IMG/VR virus record: IMGVR_UViG_2529292887_000009
Direction: 5' to 3' (one strand)
Source: a virus
Lineage: Duplodnaviria; Heunggongvirae; Uroviricota; Caudoviricetes
DNA: 10,873 bases
Position 1 is the first letter of the stretch, and every line of letters starts with the position of its first letter. Made by a program: the position numbers and the translations under genes. Shown here piece after piece: positions 1-8,277 of the stretch. The notes below the pieces were generated by a model. That model had not been told where the DNA came from and made no database searches. It saw only the letters and a list, made by a program, of their open reading frames with translations.

Positions 1-249
1 ATGCGAATTGAGATCTGTATCGCTAAAGAAAAAATCAGCAAAATGCCAAAAGGTTCTGTTCCTGCCCTACAGCAAGAAATGCTGCGACAAATCAGTAAGC
101 GTTATGACGATGTAGAAGTGATCGTTAAATCTGCCAGCAATGATGGACTCACTATTTTAAGAGCCGTGGATAAAGAATCCGCGCAAGAGTTTGTACAAGA
201 AACGCTTCAAAATGTCTGGGAAACAGCGGACGACTGGTTTATTCACTGA
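1..249 (+). CDS. DinI-like protein (SOS-response modulator family), 82 aa
   Basis: ATG at base 1, stop at 247-249. Translation MRIEICIAK...[17 protein letters not shown] matches the DinI family in length (about 81 aa), N-terminal MRIE.IAK motif and C-terminal W-E-[ST]-A-D-D-W-F motif. Promoter and any LexA box would lie outside the window. Confidence 0.75.
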
Positions 250-3442: not shown

Positions 3443-6400
3443 TCAGCGGATGCTGATCCCCGCGCTGTTTTTCTTCACCACTATCGCCTGAAGGTTACTG
3501 ATTCGTGAACTGCCCCAACTGTTATTCTGACGCCGTGAGCTCACGGTAAAACTCAGGGTGATATGACCACCGCCAGCTGGCATATCGATGATCCCGCTGA
3601 AAATTCCCGGCTCTGTCACTGACCTGCCTGAATAAATCCGGCGTCCATTCTGATCAACATGCAGGAAGCACTCTGTCCAGATGTCATTACTGGTGCGGGA
3701 TTCCTGTTTTGACCCGACATAGATTATCGGCGGGATTATAATCTGCCGGTCAAAGCGGTGATCGTCATACACCGTCAGCGTTCGTGTACCGTTCGCAAGG
3801 TGACTACCATCCACCGGAAAAGCCACCCCTGCACATTTCACAAGATCACCAATAATGTTCTCCGCTTTCAGCGTGCCATTTATCGTACAGTTCTCCGCTA
3901 TCACGACATTATTGAGCGTGCCCGAGTTCGCACTGATATGTCCGCTGATGTCCGCATTGCGGGCCGTCAGCCTGCCCTCCGGCGTCAGGGAGAACGTCGG
4001 GGGATTGCCGGACGAGGTGATGCTCACTGCAAACAGTCGCTTCAGGAACACATCGTTCATGAACAGCTGATTCCCCTGCGCCACAAACAGCGGCGTGGTG
4101 TTGCCGTTCTCCGGGTTAATCATCGCGATACGGTCCGCCTGCAGCAGAATATTGCTCAGGGGCTGGCCATCAGCATCCTCAATCCCCGCACCAATACCGG
4201 CAACATACGGAATGCCGTTTTTCGTTTTCTGCACCTTCAGCATGTACAGCGCTGCCAGCTCATCATTCGTGTCTGACTGGACCTGCTGTATCTGCTGTAT
4301 GGTCGCGCTCTGGTCTTCCAGGGTTTTACTGACCGTCTGTGTGATTTCATTGCGGGTTTCGGTGATGGTGGTCTTCATCTCCGCCATCTCATCATCAAGC
4401 TGGCTGTTATCAATCAGCTCCCACATCCCCTGTGCCAGATGTGTCTTCCCGATTTCTCCTCTGAAAAAGTCCAGATACCCTTCCGCATCATTGCTCGCCC
4501 GGCCACTGGCTTCCACAAACGCAGATTTCCCCACCAGATTGACGCTGCGCACATAAAACCAGAAATCCTTCCCCGGCCTGATGTGCGGGCCGGAGACGCT
4601 CCACTGGCTGCCGGTACCCAGATAACGGGCTGAGGTTTCCACCTGTGCCGTGTCCGTGATGCGTTTTTCTGAGAACCAGAATTCATACTGTACCGTCGGG
4701 TCATACACCGCCAGCACCGGTACTGCTGTTATCTGAAAATACCCCGGCGTCAGTTCAATGCTGGCCGGTGCCGCCGGTGCATTAATCCGGAATGTGGTGG
4801 TGGCAGGTTCGCCCTGCTGGCCGTAGCTGTTTATCGCCCTGACCGTCAGGGTGTATTCCCCGAGCGGCAGGCCACTGAAACGGTGCTCCGTGTCGGCAGT
4901 GATGGCGCTGGTCACCAGGCGGCTGTTTTCACCGTTTCCGCTGGTCAGGCGCAGACTGAAGCGCACGCCCTTCACCACCCGCGGCGTGTCCCATTTCGCC
5001 AGCGCCAGATACTGGCCGTCTGAGGCACTCACCTCCACCGTGAGGTGCTGCACTGCCGGCGGGATGACGCTGTTCAGTGAGCCGGACATCGGCTCAAAGC
5101 GGGCTCCGTTATCCACAATGGCTTCTTTTTCCGGTACGTGCTGCACTGCCGTGATGGCAAAGGTGCCGTCCGTGTTTTCCCGGATGGAAACACAGCGGAA
5201 CAGGCGACGACGCAGTGACGGCAGGGAGAGTCCCCACACACCGTATGTTGCCACGCCATCAGGCAGGACGCTGACCTGTATCCGGTCCGGGGCGGGGTGT
5301 GCAGTGATGTCCACGCGCACCGGCTTACCGCTGCCGTTAATCAGGTTCACCGTCGATGTCCCTGTCTCCGGCAGTGTCACCTCACGGTCCAGCGTCAGTG
5401 TGCGGCTGGCGGCATCGATGGACAGGATGCGTCCGCCGGTCAGGGTCCCGGCATAGTCGTTATCACAGATTTCAATGATGTCACCGGGTGTGTGCCGCAG
5501 CCCCTGAGACCCGAGCGTGAAATCCACCGTCTGCGTTTCCAGCAGTTCTGTCTTTATCACCCACAGTCCGGCACGGTGAGCCTGACCGCGGCTGGTACAG
5601 CCGAACGCGTCCATCTTCAGCAGGTTGCGCCCGTAGCGCAGGATGGCGTCCGGGTCTTCCACCAGTTCCGTGGACGTCTGCCAGCCGTTCTGCGGGTCAG
5701 TGTAATTCACCTCCACCGCCGTGTGCCGGTCCTTCAGGGCACTGAAGCTGTAGCGGAACCCCACGCCGTTATCATCCACCACCACATCGCTGTTGGTGTA
5801 CGGCCACACCACATCCGACGGACGGTCCTGAACGAACGTCAGCGTCTGGCCGTTCCATACCGGCATACAGCGCATCGCCGAGCAAAAATCCCCCAGGACA
5901 TCCCACACCTTACGCTGCTGTGACAGGTACGCATTAAAGGTCATCCGCGGCTCTGTGCCCCCGAAACCATCCGGGACCGTCTGGTCGCAGTACTGCCCGA
6001 TGGCATACAGCGCCCACTTGTCCACATCCGCGGCCCCCAGGCGTTTTCCCATCCCGTAGCGCGGGTGAGTCAGCATGTCCCACAGGCACCAGGCCGGGTT
6101 ATTGCTGTATGCCGGTTTCAGACTCCCGTCCCAGATACCGCTGTAGGTGCGTTTTTCCGGGTCATAGTTTGACGGCACCTGAATGATGCGGCCGCGGATA
6201 TGGTAGTTCACCACCATCTGCTGGCCACCGAACTGCTCCGCATCCACCTGCAGCCCCACAATGGCCGTGTTCGGGTAGCACTGTTTCACATCGATGATTT
6301 CGGTGTATGACGACCACAGCGTTCTGTTCTGCAGCTGGTCCGTGGTACTGTCCGCCGTCACCCTGACCACCCGGATGTTAAAGGGGCGCTCAGGGAGATT

Positions 6401-6910
6401 ATTCAGAATCACCGACGTCAGGTACTGCGAGGTGGTCTTGCCGTTAATGGTGACATCCTTCTCCGTCACCCAGTTACCGTTACGCTCAAGCTGAATCAGC
6501 AGGCGGACAGAAGAGGGATTACGGTCACCCTTTGAGGTGGTCTCCACCAGTGACTGCACCCCGAAGGTGACCCGCAGACGGTCAATGTTCGCTGACGTGA
6601 TGGTGCGCGTCACCGGCTTTGCCTTCGTCACCTCCACGCCCAGTGCGGTTTCTGCCCCGGAGGACTCAAAGCCTTCAGGTGGTGTCTGCTCCTGCTCCCC
6701 GGCACGCCAGACGGCGGTCACACCGTGTATCACGGGATTACCGTCCGTGTCCGTCAGCGGGGTTTTGTTCACCAGAATACTCTGCAGTCCCTTCACCGGA
6801 CCTTCCACCGGTCCCTCACCAATGGCATCAATCACGCTCATCATCTGCGTGGATTTGAGATTGTCCTTCGCCTCACGCGGTGTGTGCCCCTTGCCGCCCC
6901 CTTTACCCAC
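3443..6910 (-). CDS. J: tail tip / host specificity protein J (central tail fiber), about 1155 aa
   Basis: Long collinear similarity to lambda gpJ ([17 protein letters not shown]..., [104 protein letters not shown]). Start placed at GTG 6908-6910 (aligns with the lambda N-terminal MGKGSSKGHTP; preceded by AAAGGGGGA), not at the TTG at 6961 used by the ORF track. Confidence 0.9.
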
Positions 6911-6948
6911 TCTGTCCCCCTTTCCTGTCTGATGTCTGAATCTGTTTA

Positions 6949-6983
6949 TGCCCAAAAACAACAGGCACCCCGGAGGGTGCCTG
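6949..6983 (-). terminator. terminator-like hairpin (minus-strand orientation) just upstream of the J ribosome binding site
   Basis: 9-bp stem CAGGCACCC (6962-6970) / GGGTGCCTG (6975-6983) with a 4-nt loop; on the minus strand it is followed by TTGTTTTTGGG (plus 6949-6960). Confidence 0.35.
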
Positions 6984-6992
6984 TGTCATGAC

Positions 6993-7219
6993 GGAATAAA
7001 ATTTCTGAAATTCTTCACATTTCCGGCAATTGCCTGTAGCCGCAATAATGACGCTGCGTTACATTTTTGATGCCTGAAAAATAACTCCATAACGTTAATC
7101 TTCATCGTTCTCTCCCGCAGCTCCGCTGATTCTGCGGGATTTTTTTATCCCTTAAACCCGGCACGATGTTATCTGTCTTCTTCCACAGATACCCGCCTGG
7201 CTTCCGCTCCCCCGCTACC
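6993..7219. repeat. tandem repeat unit A (about 227 bp) of the I-J intergenic array
   Basis: Contains conserved block GGAATAAAATTTCTGAAATTCTTCACATTTCCGGCAATTGCCTGTAGCCGCAATAATGACGCTGCGTTACA, a variable segment, the hairpin CCCGCAG/CTGCGGG plus T7, and a 3' segment weakly resembling the 3' end of gene I. Confidence 0.8.
7113..7146 (+). terminator. plus-strand intrinsic-terminator-like hairpin, repeat unit A
   Basis: TCCCGCAG (7113-7120), loop CTCCGCTGATT, CTGCGGGA (7132-7139), then TTTTTTT (7140-7146). Orientation is antisense to the tail operon. Confidence 0.5.
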
Positions 7220-7441
7220 GGATAAAAAGTCTGAATTTATTCACATTTCTGCAAATTACCTGTAGCCACAATAATGACGCTGCGTTACATTTTTTGCGGG
7301 TAAATAAAAATAAAACGCCAACAGGTTAGTCAACATCGTTCTCTTCCCGCAGCACGGAGTACTGCGGGATTTTTTTATCCCCTGAACCCGGCATGATGCC
7401 TTCTGTCCTCTGCCACCGATATCCGGCCCCTCCCTTCCCGT
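7220..7441. repeat. tandem repeat unit B (about 222 bp)
   Basis: Same block order as unit A, with point substitutions and small indels (e.g. ...TTCACATTTCTGCAAATTACCTGTAGCCACAATAATGACGCTGCGTTACA...). Anchor TTCACAT recurs at 7014, 7240 and 7462 (periods 226 and 222 bp). Confidence 0.8.
7345..7376 (+). terminator. plus-strand intrinsic-terminator-like hairpin, repeat unit B
   Basis: TCCCGCAG (7345-7352), loop CACGGAGTA, CTGCGGGA (7362-7369), then T7 (7370-7376). Stem identical to unit A, loop different. Confidence 0.5.
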
Positions 7442-7665
7442 GAATAAAAATTCTGAGTTTATTCACATTTCCGCACACTGACTGTAGTGCTCATAATCAC
7501 GCTGCGTTACAGTTCATCTGCCAGAATAATGAAAAATTCCTTAAAGTTAATCTTCGTATCTCTTCCCGCAGGCGCCGAACACTGCGGGATTTTTTTTCAT
7601 CCCCGCCCGATAACCACCACTTTCCCGTCACCGCCCTCATCACGGGTGCTGATGTCCTGGGATAT
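7442..7665. repeat. tandem repeat unit C; its 3' segment is the real 3' end of gene I
   Basis: Block TGAATAAAAATTCTGAGTTTATTCACATTTCCGCACACTGACTGTAGTGCTCATAATCACGCTGCGTTACA followed by the same hairpin plus T8; the T-run abuts the I stop codon (7597-7599). Confidence 0.75.
7564..7597 (+). terminator. plus-strand intrinsic-terminator-like hairpin, repeat unit C (abuts the I stop codon)
   Basis: TCCCGCAG (7564-7571), loop GCGCCGAACA, CTGCGGGA (7582-7589), then T8 (7590-7597). Stem identical to units A and B, loop different. Confidence 0.5.
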
Positions 7666-8277
7666 CCGTCGTGAACCAACCAGCATTTCACCGTAAGGCA
7701 CCGGCATCGGATTCCCCTGAGCAATCATGTTGTCCAGTGACGAAAAATACGTGTTCTGTTTACCGTTATCCGTACTTTTGTATTCCGGCGTCTTTGCCTT
7801 CGGGGCCAGCATCTGGGCCACACCACCCAGTATCATGCTGGCACCCAGTGAGAACAGCATCGTGGTGGCAGTCAGCCCTCCGGCACTCAGGGCTGCGCCC
7901 CACAACGCCATCGTTGCACCGGCGGTGAAGAAAGAGCCCACGATGGCTGCAGCCCCCAGCACCACCTGAAAAACACCATTTCCCCCGGCCCCTGCCAGCC
8001 TCGGTACAATATGAATCACGGCTCTCCCGCTCAGCGGTTCATGAAGACGGGCATACACCGCCTCCGGCGCGGTATCCTCACCGGCAATACGTATCTGGTA
8101 CCAGCCTTCGTTCATCTGACCGCGGAATCCCGGCACCTGCAGCGACAGGGCACGGATGGCCTCCGCTGCCGTGTTCACATACAGGCTGATGCGGCGACCA
8201 AATCGTTGTAAATCCCCGTGAAGGCAGATGCGGACCAGTGGCGGTGACGCCAGACAGAATGCGTTCGTCGTTGCCAT
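7597..8277 (-). CDS. I: tail assembly protein I, 226 aa
   Basis: Collinear similarity to lambda gpI (ICLHGDLQRFGRRI, GAVIHIVPR.AGA, TDNGKQNTYFSSLDNM.AQGN, YGEM.VGSR). ATG at 8275-8277; overlaps the 3' end of K by about 100 nt, as in lambda. Confidence 0.9.
   Translation of the reverse strand: MATTNAFCLASPPLVRICLHGDLQRFGRRISLYVNTAAEAIRALSLQVPGFRGQMNEGWYQIRIAGEDTAPEAVYARLHEPLSGRAVIHIVPRLAGAGGNGVFQVVLGAAAIVGSFFTAGATMALWGAALSAGGLTATTMLFSLGASMILGGVAQMLAPKAKTPEYKSTDNGKQNTYFSSLDNMIAQGNPMPVPYGEMLVGSRRISQDISTRDEGGDGKVVVIGRG

What the first reader, a model, noticed from the sequence alone, without database searches (positions are those of the whole stretch)
7113..7597. Three hairpins with identical stems and different loops, each followed by a T-run, oriented antisense to the tail operon
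Each unit contains TCCCGCAG-loop-CTGCGGGA followed by 7-8 T on the plus strand. The stems are identical in all three copies while the loops (CTCCGCTGATT, CACGGAGTA, GCGCCGAACA) differ in sequence and length. This pattern is expected when the structure, not the sequence, is under selection. As written they are intrinsic terminators for plus-strand transcripts; on the minus-strand operon transcript the A-run precedes the hairpin, so they should not terminate late transcription. Either each unit ends a short plus-strand RNA antisense to the I-J junction, or the array blocks antisense transcription from entering I.
Basis: partly seen in the sequence, partly recalled or inferred. Interest (0 to 1): 0.7.

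Follow-up and report, generated by a model that had tools for sequence, protein, structure and literature searches.

The report
Three tandem prophage small-RNA genes
The three hairpins are the transcription terminators of three back-to-back, diverged copies of a known prophage small regulatory RNA gene (PasB/EcOnc22 family) that sits backwards between two phage tail genes. The RNA family is already known, but stacking it in a tandem array has not been described.

Summary
TCCCGCAG-loop-CTGCGGGA plus T7-8 occurs three times on the + strand (7113-7146, 7345-7376, 7564-7597), against 0 expected by chance. The hairpins are not free-standing. Each is the 3' end of a ~155-nt unit inside a ~226-nt tandem repeat (6994-7597) that fills the gap between tail genes I and J of a lambdoid prophage.

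Each unit has:
- an invariant CRP-like box (TCTGA-N6-TCACATTT);
- -10-like hexamers;
- an A-rich, mostly unpaired body;
- the hairpin and U-tail.

The units are homologues of PasB, an 83-nt Hfq-dependent sRNA of EPEC E2348/69. They also match EcOnc22/23/24 of O157 Sakai (~85 nt, destabilised without Hfq). Both lie in the same I-J gap in the same antisense orientation. Unit 1 is 97% identical to the Sakai Sp15 copy.

Across relatives the loop changes at the synonymous-site rate, while stems, T-tract and box half-sites are essentially frozen.

The functional reading holds: these are terminators of short plus-strand RNAs. What is new is the tandem 2-4-unit array of diverged paralogues. It is rare, and the latest survey of Pas sRNAs reports no tandem copies. 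Expression of units 2 and 3 is untested.

The parts
6994..7597 (+). Tandem array of three PasB/EcOnc22-family sRNA gene units (about 226-nt period) filling the I-J intergenic region
   Evidence: TRF period 226; the repeat finder D1-D4; nhmmer with the unit profile finds exactly three full-length units, E 4e-44 to 9e-46.
6994..7146 (+). Unit 1 (J-proximal): CRP-like box 7004-7019(-7022); -10 candidates AATAAT 7044-7049 and TACATT 7060-7065; predicted RNA from about 7056 or 7072 to 7146
   Evidence: The RNA region is 97.4% identical to the Sakai Sp15 copy (EcOnc22 locus) and 75.6% to PasB. Box search; hexamer statistics.
7113..7146 (+). Terminator 1: stem TCCCGCAG/CTGCGGGA, loop CTCCGCTGATT, T7
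   Evidence: -13.1 kcal/mol; present in the MFE and centroid folds.
7147..7219 (.). Inter-unit spacer 1 (origin unknown)
   Evidence: In the loci held here it is found only in multi-unit arrays. No match in the phage collection.
7220..7376 (+). Unit 2: CRP-like box 7230-7245; -10 candidates AATAAT 7270-7275 and TACATT 7286-7291; predicted RNA from about 7282 or 7298 to 7376
   Evidence: nhmmer E 8.7e-46. The RNA region is 66-72% identical to PasB and to units 1 and 3. In the sampled contigs this unit type occurs only inside arrays. Its promoter half matches the class-B unit of 4-unit arrays.
7345..7376 (+). Terminator 2: same stem, loop CACGGAGTA, T7
   Evidence: -14.1 kcal/mol.
7377..7441 (.). 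Inter-unit spacer 2 (related to spacer 1)
   Evidence: the repeat finder D3: the 64-nt family that runs from each terminator's right arm into the spacer (7132-7195 vs 7362-7425) is 84% identical. Found only in arrays.
7442..7597 (+). Unit 3 (I-proximal): CRP-like box 7452-7467; -10 candidates CATAAT 7492-7497 and TACAGT 7508-7513; predicted RNA from about 7503 or 7520 to 7597
   Evidence: nhmmer E 2.3e-45; RNA region 74.1% identical to PasB.
7564..7597 (+). Terminator 3: same stem, loop GCGCCGAACA, T8. The last T overlaps the stop codon of gene I by 1 nt
   Evidence: -14.5 kcal/mol.
7597..8277 (-). Tail assembly gene I, upstream flank of the array in operon direction
   Evidence: ORF; Pfam Lambda_tail_I 2.5e-14; RefSeq 'tail assembly protein' in the 99.9% identical record.
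3443..6910 (-). Tail tip gene J. The real start is GTG at 6910 ([20 protein letters not shown]...), downstream flank of the array
   Evidence: Translation; Pfam GpJ domains; RefSeq gpJ.
6961..6984 (-). Sense-strand (operon-strand) terminator-like hairpin just upstream of the J ribosome-binding site. It borders the array but is not part of the repeat
   Evidence: Terminator scan hit with a 10-bp stem followed by TGTTTTTGGG; -20.8 kcal/mol; conserved at 0.62 changes/site. An analogous hairpin lies in lambda's 60-nt I-J gap.

Best explanation
The three hairpin+T-run elements are the Rho-independent terminators, and at the same time the 3' Hfq-binding modules, of three tandem, diverged paralogues of the prophage sRNA gene family known as PasB (EPEC) and EcOnc22/23/24 (EHEC). 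The genes are inserted as autonomous 'moron'-like cassettes in the I-J gap of a lambdoid prophage and are transcribed against the tail operon.

Each ~155-nt unit carries:
- an invariant CRP-like box (TCTGA-N6-TCACATTT);
- one or two -10-like hexamers with no recognisable -35;
- a ~75-95-nt transcript with an A-rich tract, a CUCCUU/GUUAAUCUUCAU-type single-stranded region (the probable seed), the 8-bp GC-rich hairpin and a U7-8 tail.

Shown here: the anatomy, the homology and synteny to the experimentally detected RNAs, the pattern of constraint, and the existence and rarity of the arrays.

Inferred:
- all three copies are transcribed in the lysogen and act in trans, through Hfq, on different mRNA sets, because their bodies differ by 26-30%;
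- cAMP-CRP activates them;
- arrays arise and shrink by recombination between units.

Because the late tail transcript must cross the array, the RNAs are also perfect cis-antisense partners of the I-J spacer. Whether that matters is unknown.
For: **Homology and synteny**
- The PasB Northern probe (reverse complement AGCTCCGCGATCACTGCGGGATT) lies on the equivalent hairpin. PasB is 83 nt, on the strand opposite to its flanking genes E2348C_1436/1437, which are tail assembly protein I and gpJ.
- The E2348/69 unit has the same box, -10, body, CCCCGCAG..CTGCGGGA stem and T7. It matches the window-unit profile at E 8e-29.
- EcOnc22/23/24 peaks (+ strand; ~85 nt; destabilised in delta-hfq) all fall in the I-J gaps of Sp15, Sp14 and Sp11. 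After the +137..146 coordinate shift calibrated on AgvB they land on the unit.
- The Sp15 unit is 97.4% identical to unit 1.

**Expression of homologues**
- PasB drops with log2FC -6.8 and -2.4 in delta-hfq. Its baseMean is 482-1082, against 5-15 for the flanking tail genes.

**Constraint**
- On 78 distinct single-unit I-J segments, parsimony changes per site are: stems 0.12 and 0.00; first six T 0; box half-sites 0; loop 4.40. Third codon positions of I and J give 4.24 and 3.70.
- A sample chosen by I-protein similarity, so unbiased for the stem, gives 26 distinct I-proximal terminators. All have (T/C)CCCGCAG..CTGCGGGA, at -12 to -15 kcal/mol.
- All 110 distinct units carry TCTGA-N6-TCACA.
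- In the window itself, 36 module positions are identical in all three units while the rest is 61-72% identical (Fisher p = 9e-5 for units 1 vs 2).

**Structure**
- The hairpins form in the MFE and centroid folds with largely unpaired upstream bodies.
- Class-B units keep a hairpin+T-run with a different stem. Their inner-helix G.U wobbles pair only on the + strand.

**No competing coding signal**.

**Arrays are real and recurrent**
- 1-4 units per locus.
- 74 of 5426 complete E. coli genomes hold at least 80% of this array. Five of them hold this exact 3-unit version.
Against: - No transcript data exist for this array. Units 2 and 3 are known only from sequence and could be silent duplicates.
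- The consensus promoter scan finds no sigma-70 promoter in 6700-7900, so expression would depend on an activator or on weak promoters.
- The transcription start is ambiguous. Two -10 candidates lie 16 nt apart. The CRP-like centre would sit at -44.5 for one (non-canonical) and at about -60.5/-61.5 for the other.
- No Rfam family covers these RNAs, so membership rests on direct comparison.
- There is no compensatory covariation in the class-A stem, and RNAalifold gave no consensus on the mixed alignment.
- The loops of 9-11 nt are longer than in typical terminators.
- The minus-strand complement folds at least as stably (z = -3.8, -5.4, -1.4). Hairpin 2 forms a longer stem on that strand.
- The assignment of EcOnc22-24 depends on an inferred coordinate shift between genome versions.
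Confidence: 0.8

Rival explanations
1. Only the J-proximal unit (unit 1, the EcOnc22 orthologue) is a working sRNA gene. Units 2 and 3 are decaying by-products of unequal recombination between prophages, so their hairpins are relics.
For: - Arrays are rare. Only 14 IMG/VR contigs have adjacent class-A units, and 74 of 5426 genomes hold the array.
- Units are gained, lost and hybridised by recombination.
- There is no expression evidence for units 2 and 3.
- Unit 2 has lost the CUCCUU motif seen in most relatives.
Against: Every promoter and terminator module (box half-sites, TAAT and TAnnnT hexamers, both stem arms, T7-8) is intact in units 2 and 3, although 28-39% of the other positions have changed. 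The same unit types recur unchanged in independent genomes and contigs.
Confidence: 0.12
2. The elements work purely as insulators. They are plus-strand terminators that stop antisense transcription from running into gene I, and the RNAs that end there have no role of their own.
For: - The orientation and T-runs fit a terminator.
- In other prophages the same terminator closes a plus-strand sodC moron in the same gap, so it does serve as a general stop signal there.
Against: - One terminator would suffice, yet each hairpin is preceded by its own conserved promoter-like module and a body under intermediate constraint.
- The homologous RNAs accumulate, bind Hfq and form 37 RIL-seq interactions.
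Confidence: 0.04
3. The functional strand is the minus strand. The hairpins act inside the late tail mRNA as processing sites, stabilisers or translational-coupling elements between I and J, or each unit encodes a small protein in operon direction.
For: - Minus-strand folds are very stable (z = -3.8 and -5.4 for units 1 and 2).
- The complement of the seed region reads like a ribosome-binding site plus AUG (GGGAGAGAACGAUGAAGAUUAAC). Some units have a 25-44-codon ORF beginning MKIN.
Against: - 58 of 77 distinct units have no ORF of at least 25 codons. Where present, frames and sequences differ. Unit 3 has ACG in place of AUG, and units differ by non-triplet indels.
- The frozen run of at least six T directly 3' of the stem is a plus-strand terminator signature.
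- Wobble pairs in class-B hairpins pair only on the + strand.
- Lambda does without any unit in its 60-nt I-J gap.
- No above-chance pairing of the RNA bodies with the J translation-initiation region.
Confidence: 0.04

Closest known systems
PasB (pathogenicity-associated sRNA B) of EPEC E2348/69 (Pearl Mizrahi et al. 2021, PMC8550237; Zhu, Shabalina and Storz 2026, bioRxiv 10.64898/2026.05.13.724894)
   Same: - Same location (I-J gap of a lambdoid prophage) and same antisense orientation.
- Same unit architecture: TCTGA-N6-TCACATTT box, -10, A-rich body, CCCGCAG/CTGCGGG stem, U7.
- RNA region 66-76% identical; the whole unit matches at E 8e-29.
   Different: - PasB is a single copy per prophage. 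The survey reports a minimum distance of 28,355 bp between pasB copies and contrasts Pas sRNAs with tandem duplicates. Here three diverged copies sit 226 nt apart.
- The bodies (probable seeds) and loops differ.
EcOnc22 / EcOnc23 / EcOnc24 of E. coli O157:H7 Sakai prophages Sp15, Sp14, Sp11 (Tree et al. 2014, PMC4104026, Table S2)
   Same: - Plus-strand Hfq-crosslinked RNAs in the I-J gaps, ~85 nt, destabilised without Hfq.
- The Sp15 unit is 97.4% identical to unit 1.
   Different: - One unit per prophage, with targets listed as unknown.
- Neither Pearl Mizrahi et al. nor the review that lists EcOnc22 links EcOnc22-24 to PasB. The link here rests on sequence plus a calibrated coordinate shift.
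Tandemly duplicated trans-acting sRNAs: OmrA/OmrB (E. coli) and PrrF1/PrrF2 (Pseudomonas)
   Same: Adjacent paralogous Hfq-type sRNA genes. Each has its own promoter and terminator. Regulatory and terminator modules are conserved while parts of the body diverge.
   Different: Those are chromosomal core-genome pairs. This is a 2-4-unit array inside a prophage structural operon, antisense to it, with copy number varying between strains.
AgvB / AsxR prophage 'anti-sRNAs' at the PR' moron site (Tree et al. 2014; Rfam RF02702, RF02703)
   Same: Short Hfq-dependent sRNAs carried at fixed, insertion-tolerant positions of lambdoid prophages of pathogenic E. coli. They form families with a conserved 3' part and a variable 5' part.
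   Different: Different locus (downstream of Q/PR'), different sequence, and no Rfam match in this window. No evidence that the present RNAs sponge other sRNAs.
sodC moron in the I-J gap of related prophages
   Same: Same insertion point and same antisense orientation. It ends with a PasB-like body plus the same CCCGCAG/CTGCGGG terminator.
   Different: It is protein-coding (Cu/Zn superoxide dismutase, Pfam Sod_Cu 3.9e-32) and lacks the CRP-like box. The unit profile matches only from position 61 on.

Membership tests
PasB / EcOnc22-24 prophage sRNA family | Sequence homology to the experimentally defined PasB gene | tested here: met
   The E2348/69 unit matches the profile of the three window units at E 8.4e-29. 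RNA-region identities are 75.6%, 65.9% and 74.1%. The PasB probe sequence maps onto the hairpin.
PasB / EcOnc22-24 prophage sRNA family | Location between tail genes I and J of a lambdoid prophage, on the strand opposite to them | tested here: met
   Window. E2348/69. Sakai Sp15, Sp14 and Sp11. All 77 I-selected IMG/VR loci in which both the I stop and the J start could be placed have at least one unit in the gap.
PasB / EcOnc22-24 prophage sRNA family | [quoted passage not shown] | tested here: met
   Zhu et al. describe this for all Pas sRNAs.
PasB / EcOnc22-24 prophage sRNA family | A discrete ~80-90-nt transcript that is Hfq-bound and Hfq-stabilised | not testable with these tools
   Shown for PasB and EcOnc22 only. 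There are no data for this array. Unit 1 is near-identical to the EcOnc22 locus, but units 2 and 3 have no tested orthologue.
Rho-independent (intrinsic) terminator | GC-rich stem immediately followed by a U-tract on the transcribed strand | tested here: met
   The stem has 8 bp, 6 of them G-C, at -13 to -14.5 kcal/mol, with T7, T7 and T8 directly after it. The generic scan missed the 8-bp stems only because the loops exceed its 8-nt limit.
Rho-independent (intrinsic) terminator | RNA 3' ends at the U-tract in vivo | not testable with these tools
   The annotated PasB 3' end (1466261) lies at the end of the T-run in E2348/69. Nothing is known for this locus.
Hfq-binding module of sRNAs (terminator hairpin + at least 7 U + U-rich stretch upstream; established knowledge from work of the Aiba laboratory) | Terminal U-tract of 7 or more, preceded by a hairpin and a U-rich single strand | tested here: met
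   The sequence shows U7, U7 and U8 tails and ..CAUCGUUCUCU.. / ..CGUAUCUCUU.. upstream of the stem. Binding itself is untested.
cAMP-CRP-dependent promoter | Match to TGTGA-N6-TCACA | tested here: met
   TCTGA-N6-TCACATTT (one mismatch, perfect right half) occurs once per unit and nowhere else in the window, against 0.00 expected and 0.45 expected at one mismatch or fewer. It is invariant in 110 distinct units, with 0 changes in the half-sites.
cAMP-CRP-dependent promoter | Site centred at a canonical activating position (-41.5 or -61.5 and so on) relative to a mapped start | tested here: inconclusive
   The centre is 32.5 nt upstream of xxTAAT, which puts it at about -44.5. It is 48.5 nt upstream of TAnnnT, which puts it at about -60.5/-61.5. 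The annotated PasB 5' end fits the second option. No start-site mapping is available.
cAMP-CRP-dependent promoter | CRP binding and glucose/crp dependence of transcription | not testable with these tools
   The only hint is that PasB is higher under the non-activating condition than the activating one. My recollection that these are LB and glucose-containing DMEM was not checked in the paper.
cis-antisense RNA regulator of the overlapping mRNA | Full complementarity to a transcript from the opposite strand | tested here: met
   The array lies wholly between the I stop (7597-7599) and the J start (6910), inside the tail operon.
cis-antisense RNA regulator of the overlapping mRNA | Demonstrated effect on the sense transcript | not tested
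   The held part of the RIL-seq table has no chimeras with E2348C_1436/1437, but tail genes are barely expressed in those cultures and the table was cut when stored. There is no above-chance pairing to the J initiation region in trans.

The most novel reading that the evidence does not exclude
The I-J junction of lambdoid prophages is a cassette site where CRP-controlled sRNA genes are stacked and reshuffled by recombination at their invariant promoter and terminator modules. This would give some Shiga-toxin-producing E. coli a tandem battery of 2-4 sRNAs with different seeds. Because the late tail transcript must cross the array, the same RNAs would also act in cis, through RNase III-sensitive duplexes in the I-J spacer. 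That would tie production of the host-range protein J, or competition between co-resident and superinfecting phages that share a unit, to the host's carbon status.
Probability: 0.12. Interest if true: 0.65.

Novelty: new variant of a known kind. Interest (0 to 1): 0.4.

Why it matters
Prophage sRNAs rewire core and virulence gene expression in EPEC and EHEC, and PasB/EcOnc22 still has no assigned function.

Three points follow from this analysis.
1. PasB and EcOnc22-24 appear to be one family with a fixed address, the I-J gap.
2. The family's most conserved feature is a CRP-like box, which gives a testable regulatory input.
3. Some strains carry tandem arrays of diverged paralogues. This is an exception to the published conclusion that Pas sRNA copy number grows only by acquiring more prophages.

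In practice, the neutral loops provide ready-made paralogue-specific probe sites. No Rfam model exists, and RefSeq leaves the gap unannotated in the one record inspected, so these genes are likely invisible to standard annotation. The biology is incremental rather than surprising: the hairpins themselves are ordinary sRNA terminators.

Tried and rejected
- **Rfam.** The gathering search of the whole window and the permissive search of 6800-7800 found nothing relevant. PasB is not in Rfam 15.
- **AgvB/AsxR/Esr41 identity.** This was my first guess from memory. It was rejected because there is no Rfam hit and the locus is different.
- **Genome-contig scan with the stem+T pattern.** It returned more than 120 generic terminators from unrelated phyla, and none carries the unit. 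The 8-bp stem+T-run alone is not diagnostic, and the scan was wasted for taxonomic range.
- **Small protein on the minus strand.** Rejected.
- **Loop hypervariability as diversifying selection.** Rejected. The loop rate of 4.40 per site equals the synonymous-site rate of 3.7-4.2.
- **Covariation.** RNAalifold gave no consensus on a mixed class-A/class-B alignment. Pair counting shows the class-A stem never varies, and the departures are misaligned class-B rows.
- **Spacers as relics of the 3' end of an I allele.** The weak peptide resemblance (RRIS..G*) is matched by no I allele in 80 loci, nor by lambda I. There is no hit in the phage collection.
- **Trans pairing of the RNA bodies with the J initiation region.** Not better than shuffles.
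- **Consensus sigma-70 promoter scan.** No hit.
- **Literature search for sRNAs described between the I and J tail genes.** Nothing relevant was found. The only other paper that names EcOnc22 lists its target as unknown.
Full report
**1. The observation.** The sequence contains TCCCGCAG-loop-CTGCGGGA followed by T7, T7 and T8 at 7113-7146, 7345-7376 and 7564-7597 on the + strand. The loops are CTCCGCTGATT, CACGGAGTA and GCGCCGAACA. An exact pattern search finds these three sites and no others, against 0.00 expected in 200 dinucleotide-preserving shuffles. The hairpins alone fold at -13.1, -14.1 and -14.5 kcal/mol. They appear in the MFE and centroid structures of the surrounding 76-96 nt. The flanking ORFs on the minus strand are tail assembly protein I (7597..8277; Pfam Lambda_tail_I) and tip protein J (GpJ domains). 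The real J start is GTG at 6910. A RefSeq chromosome (E. coli 2013C-3181) is 99.9% identical over the 681-nt query spanning the array (6940-7620).

**2. What the hairpins belong to.** They are not isolated. Tandem Repeats Finder reports a 226-nt period from 6994, and the repeat finder gives three copies of several long families. A profile built from the three ~155-nt units finds exactly three full-length copies, at 6994-7146, 7220-7376 and 7442-7597. They are separated by two related spacers. Read 5' to 3' on the + strand, each unit has:
- GAATAAAA;
- TCTGA-N6-TCACATTT;
- about 24 nt, then AATAAT or CATAAT;
- ACGCTGCGT, then TACATT or TACAGT;
- a T-run;
- an A-rich tract;
- a CUCCUU-like motif (lost in unit 2);
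- GUUAAUCUUC(A/G)U (GUUAGUCAACAU in unit 2);
- a U/C-rich stretch;
- the hairpin and the T-run.

**3. Identification.** Rfam has no match, so I turned to the literature. Pearl Mizrahi et al. (PMC8550237, Table S6) define PasB in EPEC E2348/69. It is 83 nt, at NC_011601 1466343..1466261, on the strand opposite to its neighbours E2348C_1436/1437. Its Northern probe is AATCCCGCAGTGATCGCGGAGCT. The reverse complement of that probe is the loop and right arm of a hairpin of exactly this kind. The locus lies between 'tail assembly protein' and 'gpJ' and has the same box, -10, body, CCCCGCAG/CTGCGGGA stem and T7. It matches the window-unit profile at E 8e-29.

Tree et al. (PMC4104026, Table S2) list EcOnc22 (Sp15), EcOnc23 (Sp14) and EcOnc24 (Sp11) as homologous plus-strand Hfq-crosslinked RNAs. 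EcOnc22 is ~85 nt on a Northern blot and is destabilised in delta-hfq. In the current Sakai record all three positions fall in I-J gaps. The old coordinates are offset, and AgvB calibrates the shift at +137..146 nt. That shift puts the three peaks on the unit. This step is an inference. The Sp15 unit is 97.4% identical to unit 1 over the RNA region. Units 2 and 3 are 66-76% identical to PasB, to the Sp15 copy and to each other.

The three hairpins are therefore the terminators of three PasB/EcOnc22-family genes. In neither Pearl Mizrahi et al. nor the review that lists EcOnc22 did I find PasB linked to EcOnc22-24.

**4. Constraint.** I collected relatives in two ways. One used the stem pattern in IMG/VR, which is biased for the stem. 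The other used similarity to protein I, which is not. On 78 distinct single-unit I-J segments, Fitch parsimony on an NJ tree gives the following changes per site:

| Region | Changes per site |
|---|---|
| Loop | 4.40 |
| Third codon positions of I | 4.24 |
| Third codon positions of J | 3.70 |
| Stem arms | 0.12 and 0.00 |
| Box half-sites | 0 |
| First six T of the tail | 0 |
| RNA body | 2.39 |

In the I-selected sample all 26 distinct I-proximal terminators have (T/C)CCCGCAG..CTGCGGGA. The loop is therefore neutral, not hypervariable. The stem is frozen at the sequence level, with no compensatory change inside this class, so covariation evidence is absent.

Structural conservation is nevertheless supported by a second unit class, class B. 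It keeps the promoter module but ends in TCTCCCGT..ACGGGAGA plus T5-7. Its inner helix contains G.U wobbles that pair only on the + strand. Within the window, the 36 module positions are identical in all three units by direct reading, while the remainder is 61-72% identical.

**5. Promoter.** The most conserved element of the unit is TCTGA-N6-TCACATTT. It occurs once per unit, against 0 expected, and is invariant in 110 distinct units. It differs from the CRP consensus TGTGA-N6-TCACA at one position, and its right half with flank is perfect. Because it is identical across prophages, a host factor seems more likely to me than a phage repressor. I did not compare the immunity regions.

Two -10 candidates sit at fixed distances from the box centre. 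The first is xxTAAT at 32.5 nt (TATAAT in E2348/69). The second is TAnnnT at 48.5 nt. The annotated PasB 5' end lies 7 nt after the second, which would put the box centre near -60.5/-61.5, a class-I-like position. The first gives -44.5. No -35 is recognisable, and the consensus scan finds no promoter, as expected for an activator-dependent promoter. PasB is reported as higher under the non-activating condition than under the activating one. From memory, unchecked in the paper, these are LB and glucose-containing DMEM, which would fit CRP. CRP control is a hypothesis, not a finding.

**6. Rivals.**
- A small ORF on the operon strand is not conserved. Of 77 distinct units, 58 lack any ORF of 25 codons or more, frames differ, unit 3 has ACG for AUG, and indels are not in triplets.
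- An insulator-only role does not explain three complete promoter+body+terminator modules, or the Hfq-bound RNAs of the homologues.
- A sense-strand structural role cannot be excluded. The complement folds very stably. However, it does not explain the frozen T-tract or the + strand wobbles, and lambda has no unit in its 60-nt gap.
- Silent duplicates remain the main residual doubt for units 2 and 3.

**7. The array.** Among loci sampled, units occur singly in most cases and as arrays of 2, 3 or 4. A complete IMG/VR scan for two adjacent class-A units gives only 14 contigs. Two layouts recur: [unit 1]-[class B]-[unit 2]-[unit 3], which is the commonest, and [class B']-[A]-[A].

The window lacks the class-B unit, and its unit 2 carries the class-B type promoter half. 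It therefore looks like a 4-unit array shortened by recombination between neighbouring units. L115 has a unit with the unit-2 body and a unit-3-type loop, a junction inside the shared stem.

In complete E. coli genomes:
- 753 of 5426 carry at least one matching place;
- 74 carry at least 80% of this array;
- 5 carry this exact 3-unit form at 99.4% identity or more.

The best-matching array-bearing records are largely human STEC and bovine isolates. Phage records match only unit 1. Zhu, Shabalina and Storz (2026) report a minimum distance of 28,355 bp between pasB copies. They contrast Pas sRNAs with tandem duplicates such as OmrA/B and PrrF1/2. The tandem arrays are therefore not covered by that survey, probably because the paralogues are too diverged for their BLAST settings. 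That explanation is an inference.

**8. Mechanism.** The best-supported model is this. Each unit is an autonomous sRNA gene expressed in the lysogen. PasB is 30-200 times more abundant than its flanking tail-gene mRNAs. The hairpin plus U7-8 terminates transcription and provides the Hfq proximal-face site. The A-rich tract and the single-stranded region upstream of the stem pair with mRNAs in trans. PasB has 37 RIL-seq interactions, and the PasB side of the one chimera row shown maps to its 3' 45 nt. Zhu et al. place the seed just upstream of the terminator. Because the three bodies differ, the array would widen the target range.

The RNAs are also perfect antisense partners of the I-J spacer of the late transcript. 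No evidence bears on whether this matters. No I or J chimeras appear in the held part of the RIL-seq table, and trans pairing with the J start region is no better than chance.

**9. Verdict.** The hairpins are ordinary sRNA terminators of a known, though functionally uncharacterised, prophage sRNA family. Unit 1 is essentially the known EcOnc22 gene. The tandem array of diverged paralogues, the unification of PasB with EcOnc22-24, and the invariant CRP-like box are new but incremental. Novelty: new variant of a known kind. Interest: 0.4.

Noticed in passing
window 6961-6984 (minus strand), followed by TGTTTTTGGG at 6960-6951: A strong terminator-like hairpin (10-bp stem, -20.8 kcal/mol) lies on the operon strand, between the array and the J ribosome-binding site. 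It is conserved in relatives (0.62 changes/site). Lambda has an analogous hairpin (AAACCGCCTGCGGGCGGTTTTGTC) in its 60-nt I-J gap. It would stop non-antiterminated transcription before J. Its role is unknown to me.
   Followed up: partly
L133 (IMG/VR), I-J gap of about 857 nt; the same layout in 11 of the 80 I-selected loci: In other prophages the same gap holds a plus-strand (antisense) sodC gene (Cu/Zn superoxide dismutase, Pfam Sod_Cu 3.9e-32). It is followed by a PasB-like body and the same CCCGCAG/CTGCGGG terminator with a long loop, but without the CRP-like box. The sRNA part may be a sodC 3'-UTR product there.
   Followed up: partly
L148 (IMG/VR), I-J gap of about 348 nt; 15 loci: A further gap variant has one PasB-type unit plus an extra ~100-nt module. 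The module contains a bidirectional-terminator-like hairpin (AAACCCCGGTATCAGCAGATACCGGGGTTTTCTTT) where the window has the sense-strand hairpin.
   Followed up: no
L115 4149-4306; window 7220-7300 compared with class-B units of L055 and L028: There are hybrid units. L115 joins a unit-2 body to a unit-3-type loop, so the junction lies in the shared stem. The window's unit 2 has the promoter half of the class-B unit found in 4-unit arrays. The invariant modules seem to act as recombination points.
   Followed up: partly
window 7084-7116, 7322-7348 and 7539-7567 (+), and the complement: The single-stranded region upstream of each stem resembles the 16S anti-Shine-Dalgarno end (AACUCCUUAA in most relatives). 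Its complement reads like a ribosome-binding site plus AUG (GGGAGAGAACGAUGAAGAUUAAC, 'MKIN'). The resulting minus-strand mini-ORF is not conserved.
   Followed up: yes
window 7147-7219 and 7377-7441: In the loci held here the inter-unit spacers occur only inside arrays, and spacer 1 has no match in the 50,697-record phage collection. On the minus strand they end ..AGFKG* and ..AGFRG* just before the A-run, faintly like the end of gene I. No I allele with that end was found.
   Followed up: yes
window 3443-6961 (-): The longest-ORF call for J (TTG at 6961) is over-extended by 17 codons. It would swallow the sense-strand hairpin. The lambda-like start [20 protein letters not shown] is GTG at 6910.
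   Followed up: yes
L002, L003, L004, L005 (E. coli O157:H7 Sakai, NC_002695.2): Coordinates in Tree et al. 2014 Table S2 are offset from the current Sakai record by about +137..146 nt at 1.94 Mb, as calibrated on AgvB. Anyone mapping EcOnc RNAs onto NC_002695.2 needs this correction.
   Followed up: partly
L207-L326 (genome contigs): The bare motif TCCCGCAG-N7-13-CTGCGGGA-T6 occurs in more than 120 unrelated bacterial genomes (Firmicutes, Bacteroidota, Chloroflexota and others) as generic terminators. This is far more than the roughly 0.5 expected from uniform base composition.
   Followed up: yes
window 6790-6820 and 4283-4300: Two short tandem repeats lie inside the J coding region: a 12-nt period with 2.7 copies, and a 9-nt period with 2 copies. 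They are probably trivial.
   Followed up: no
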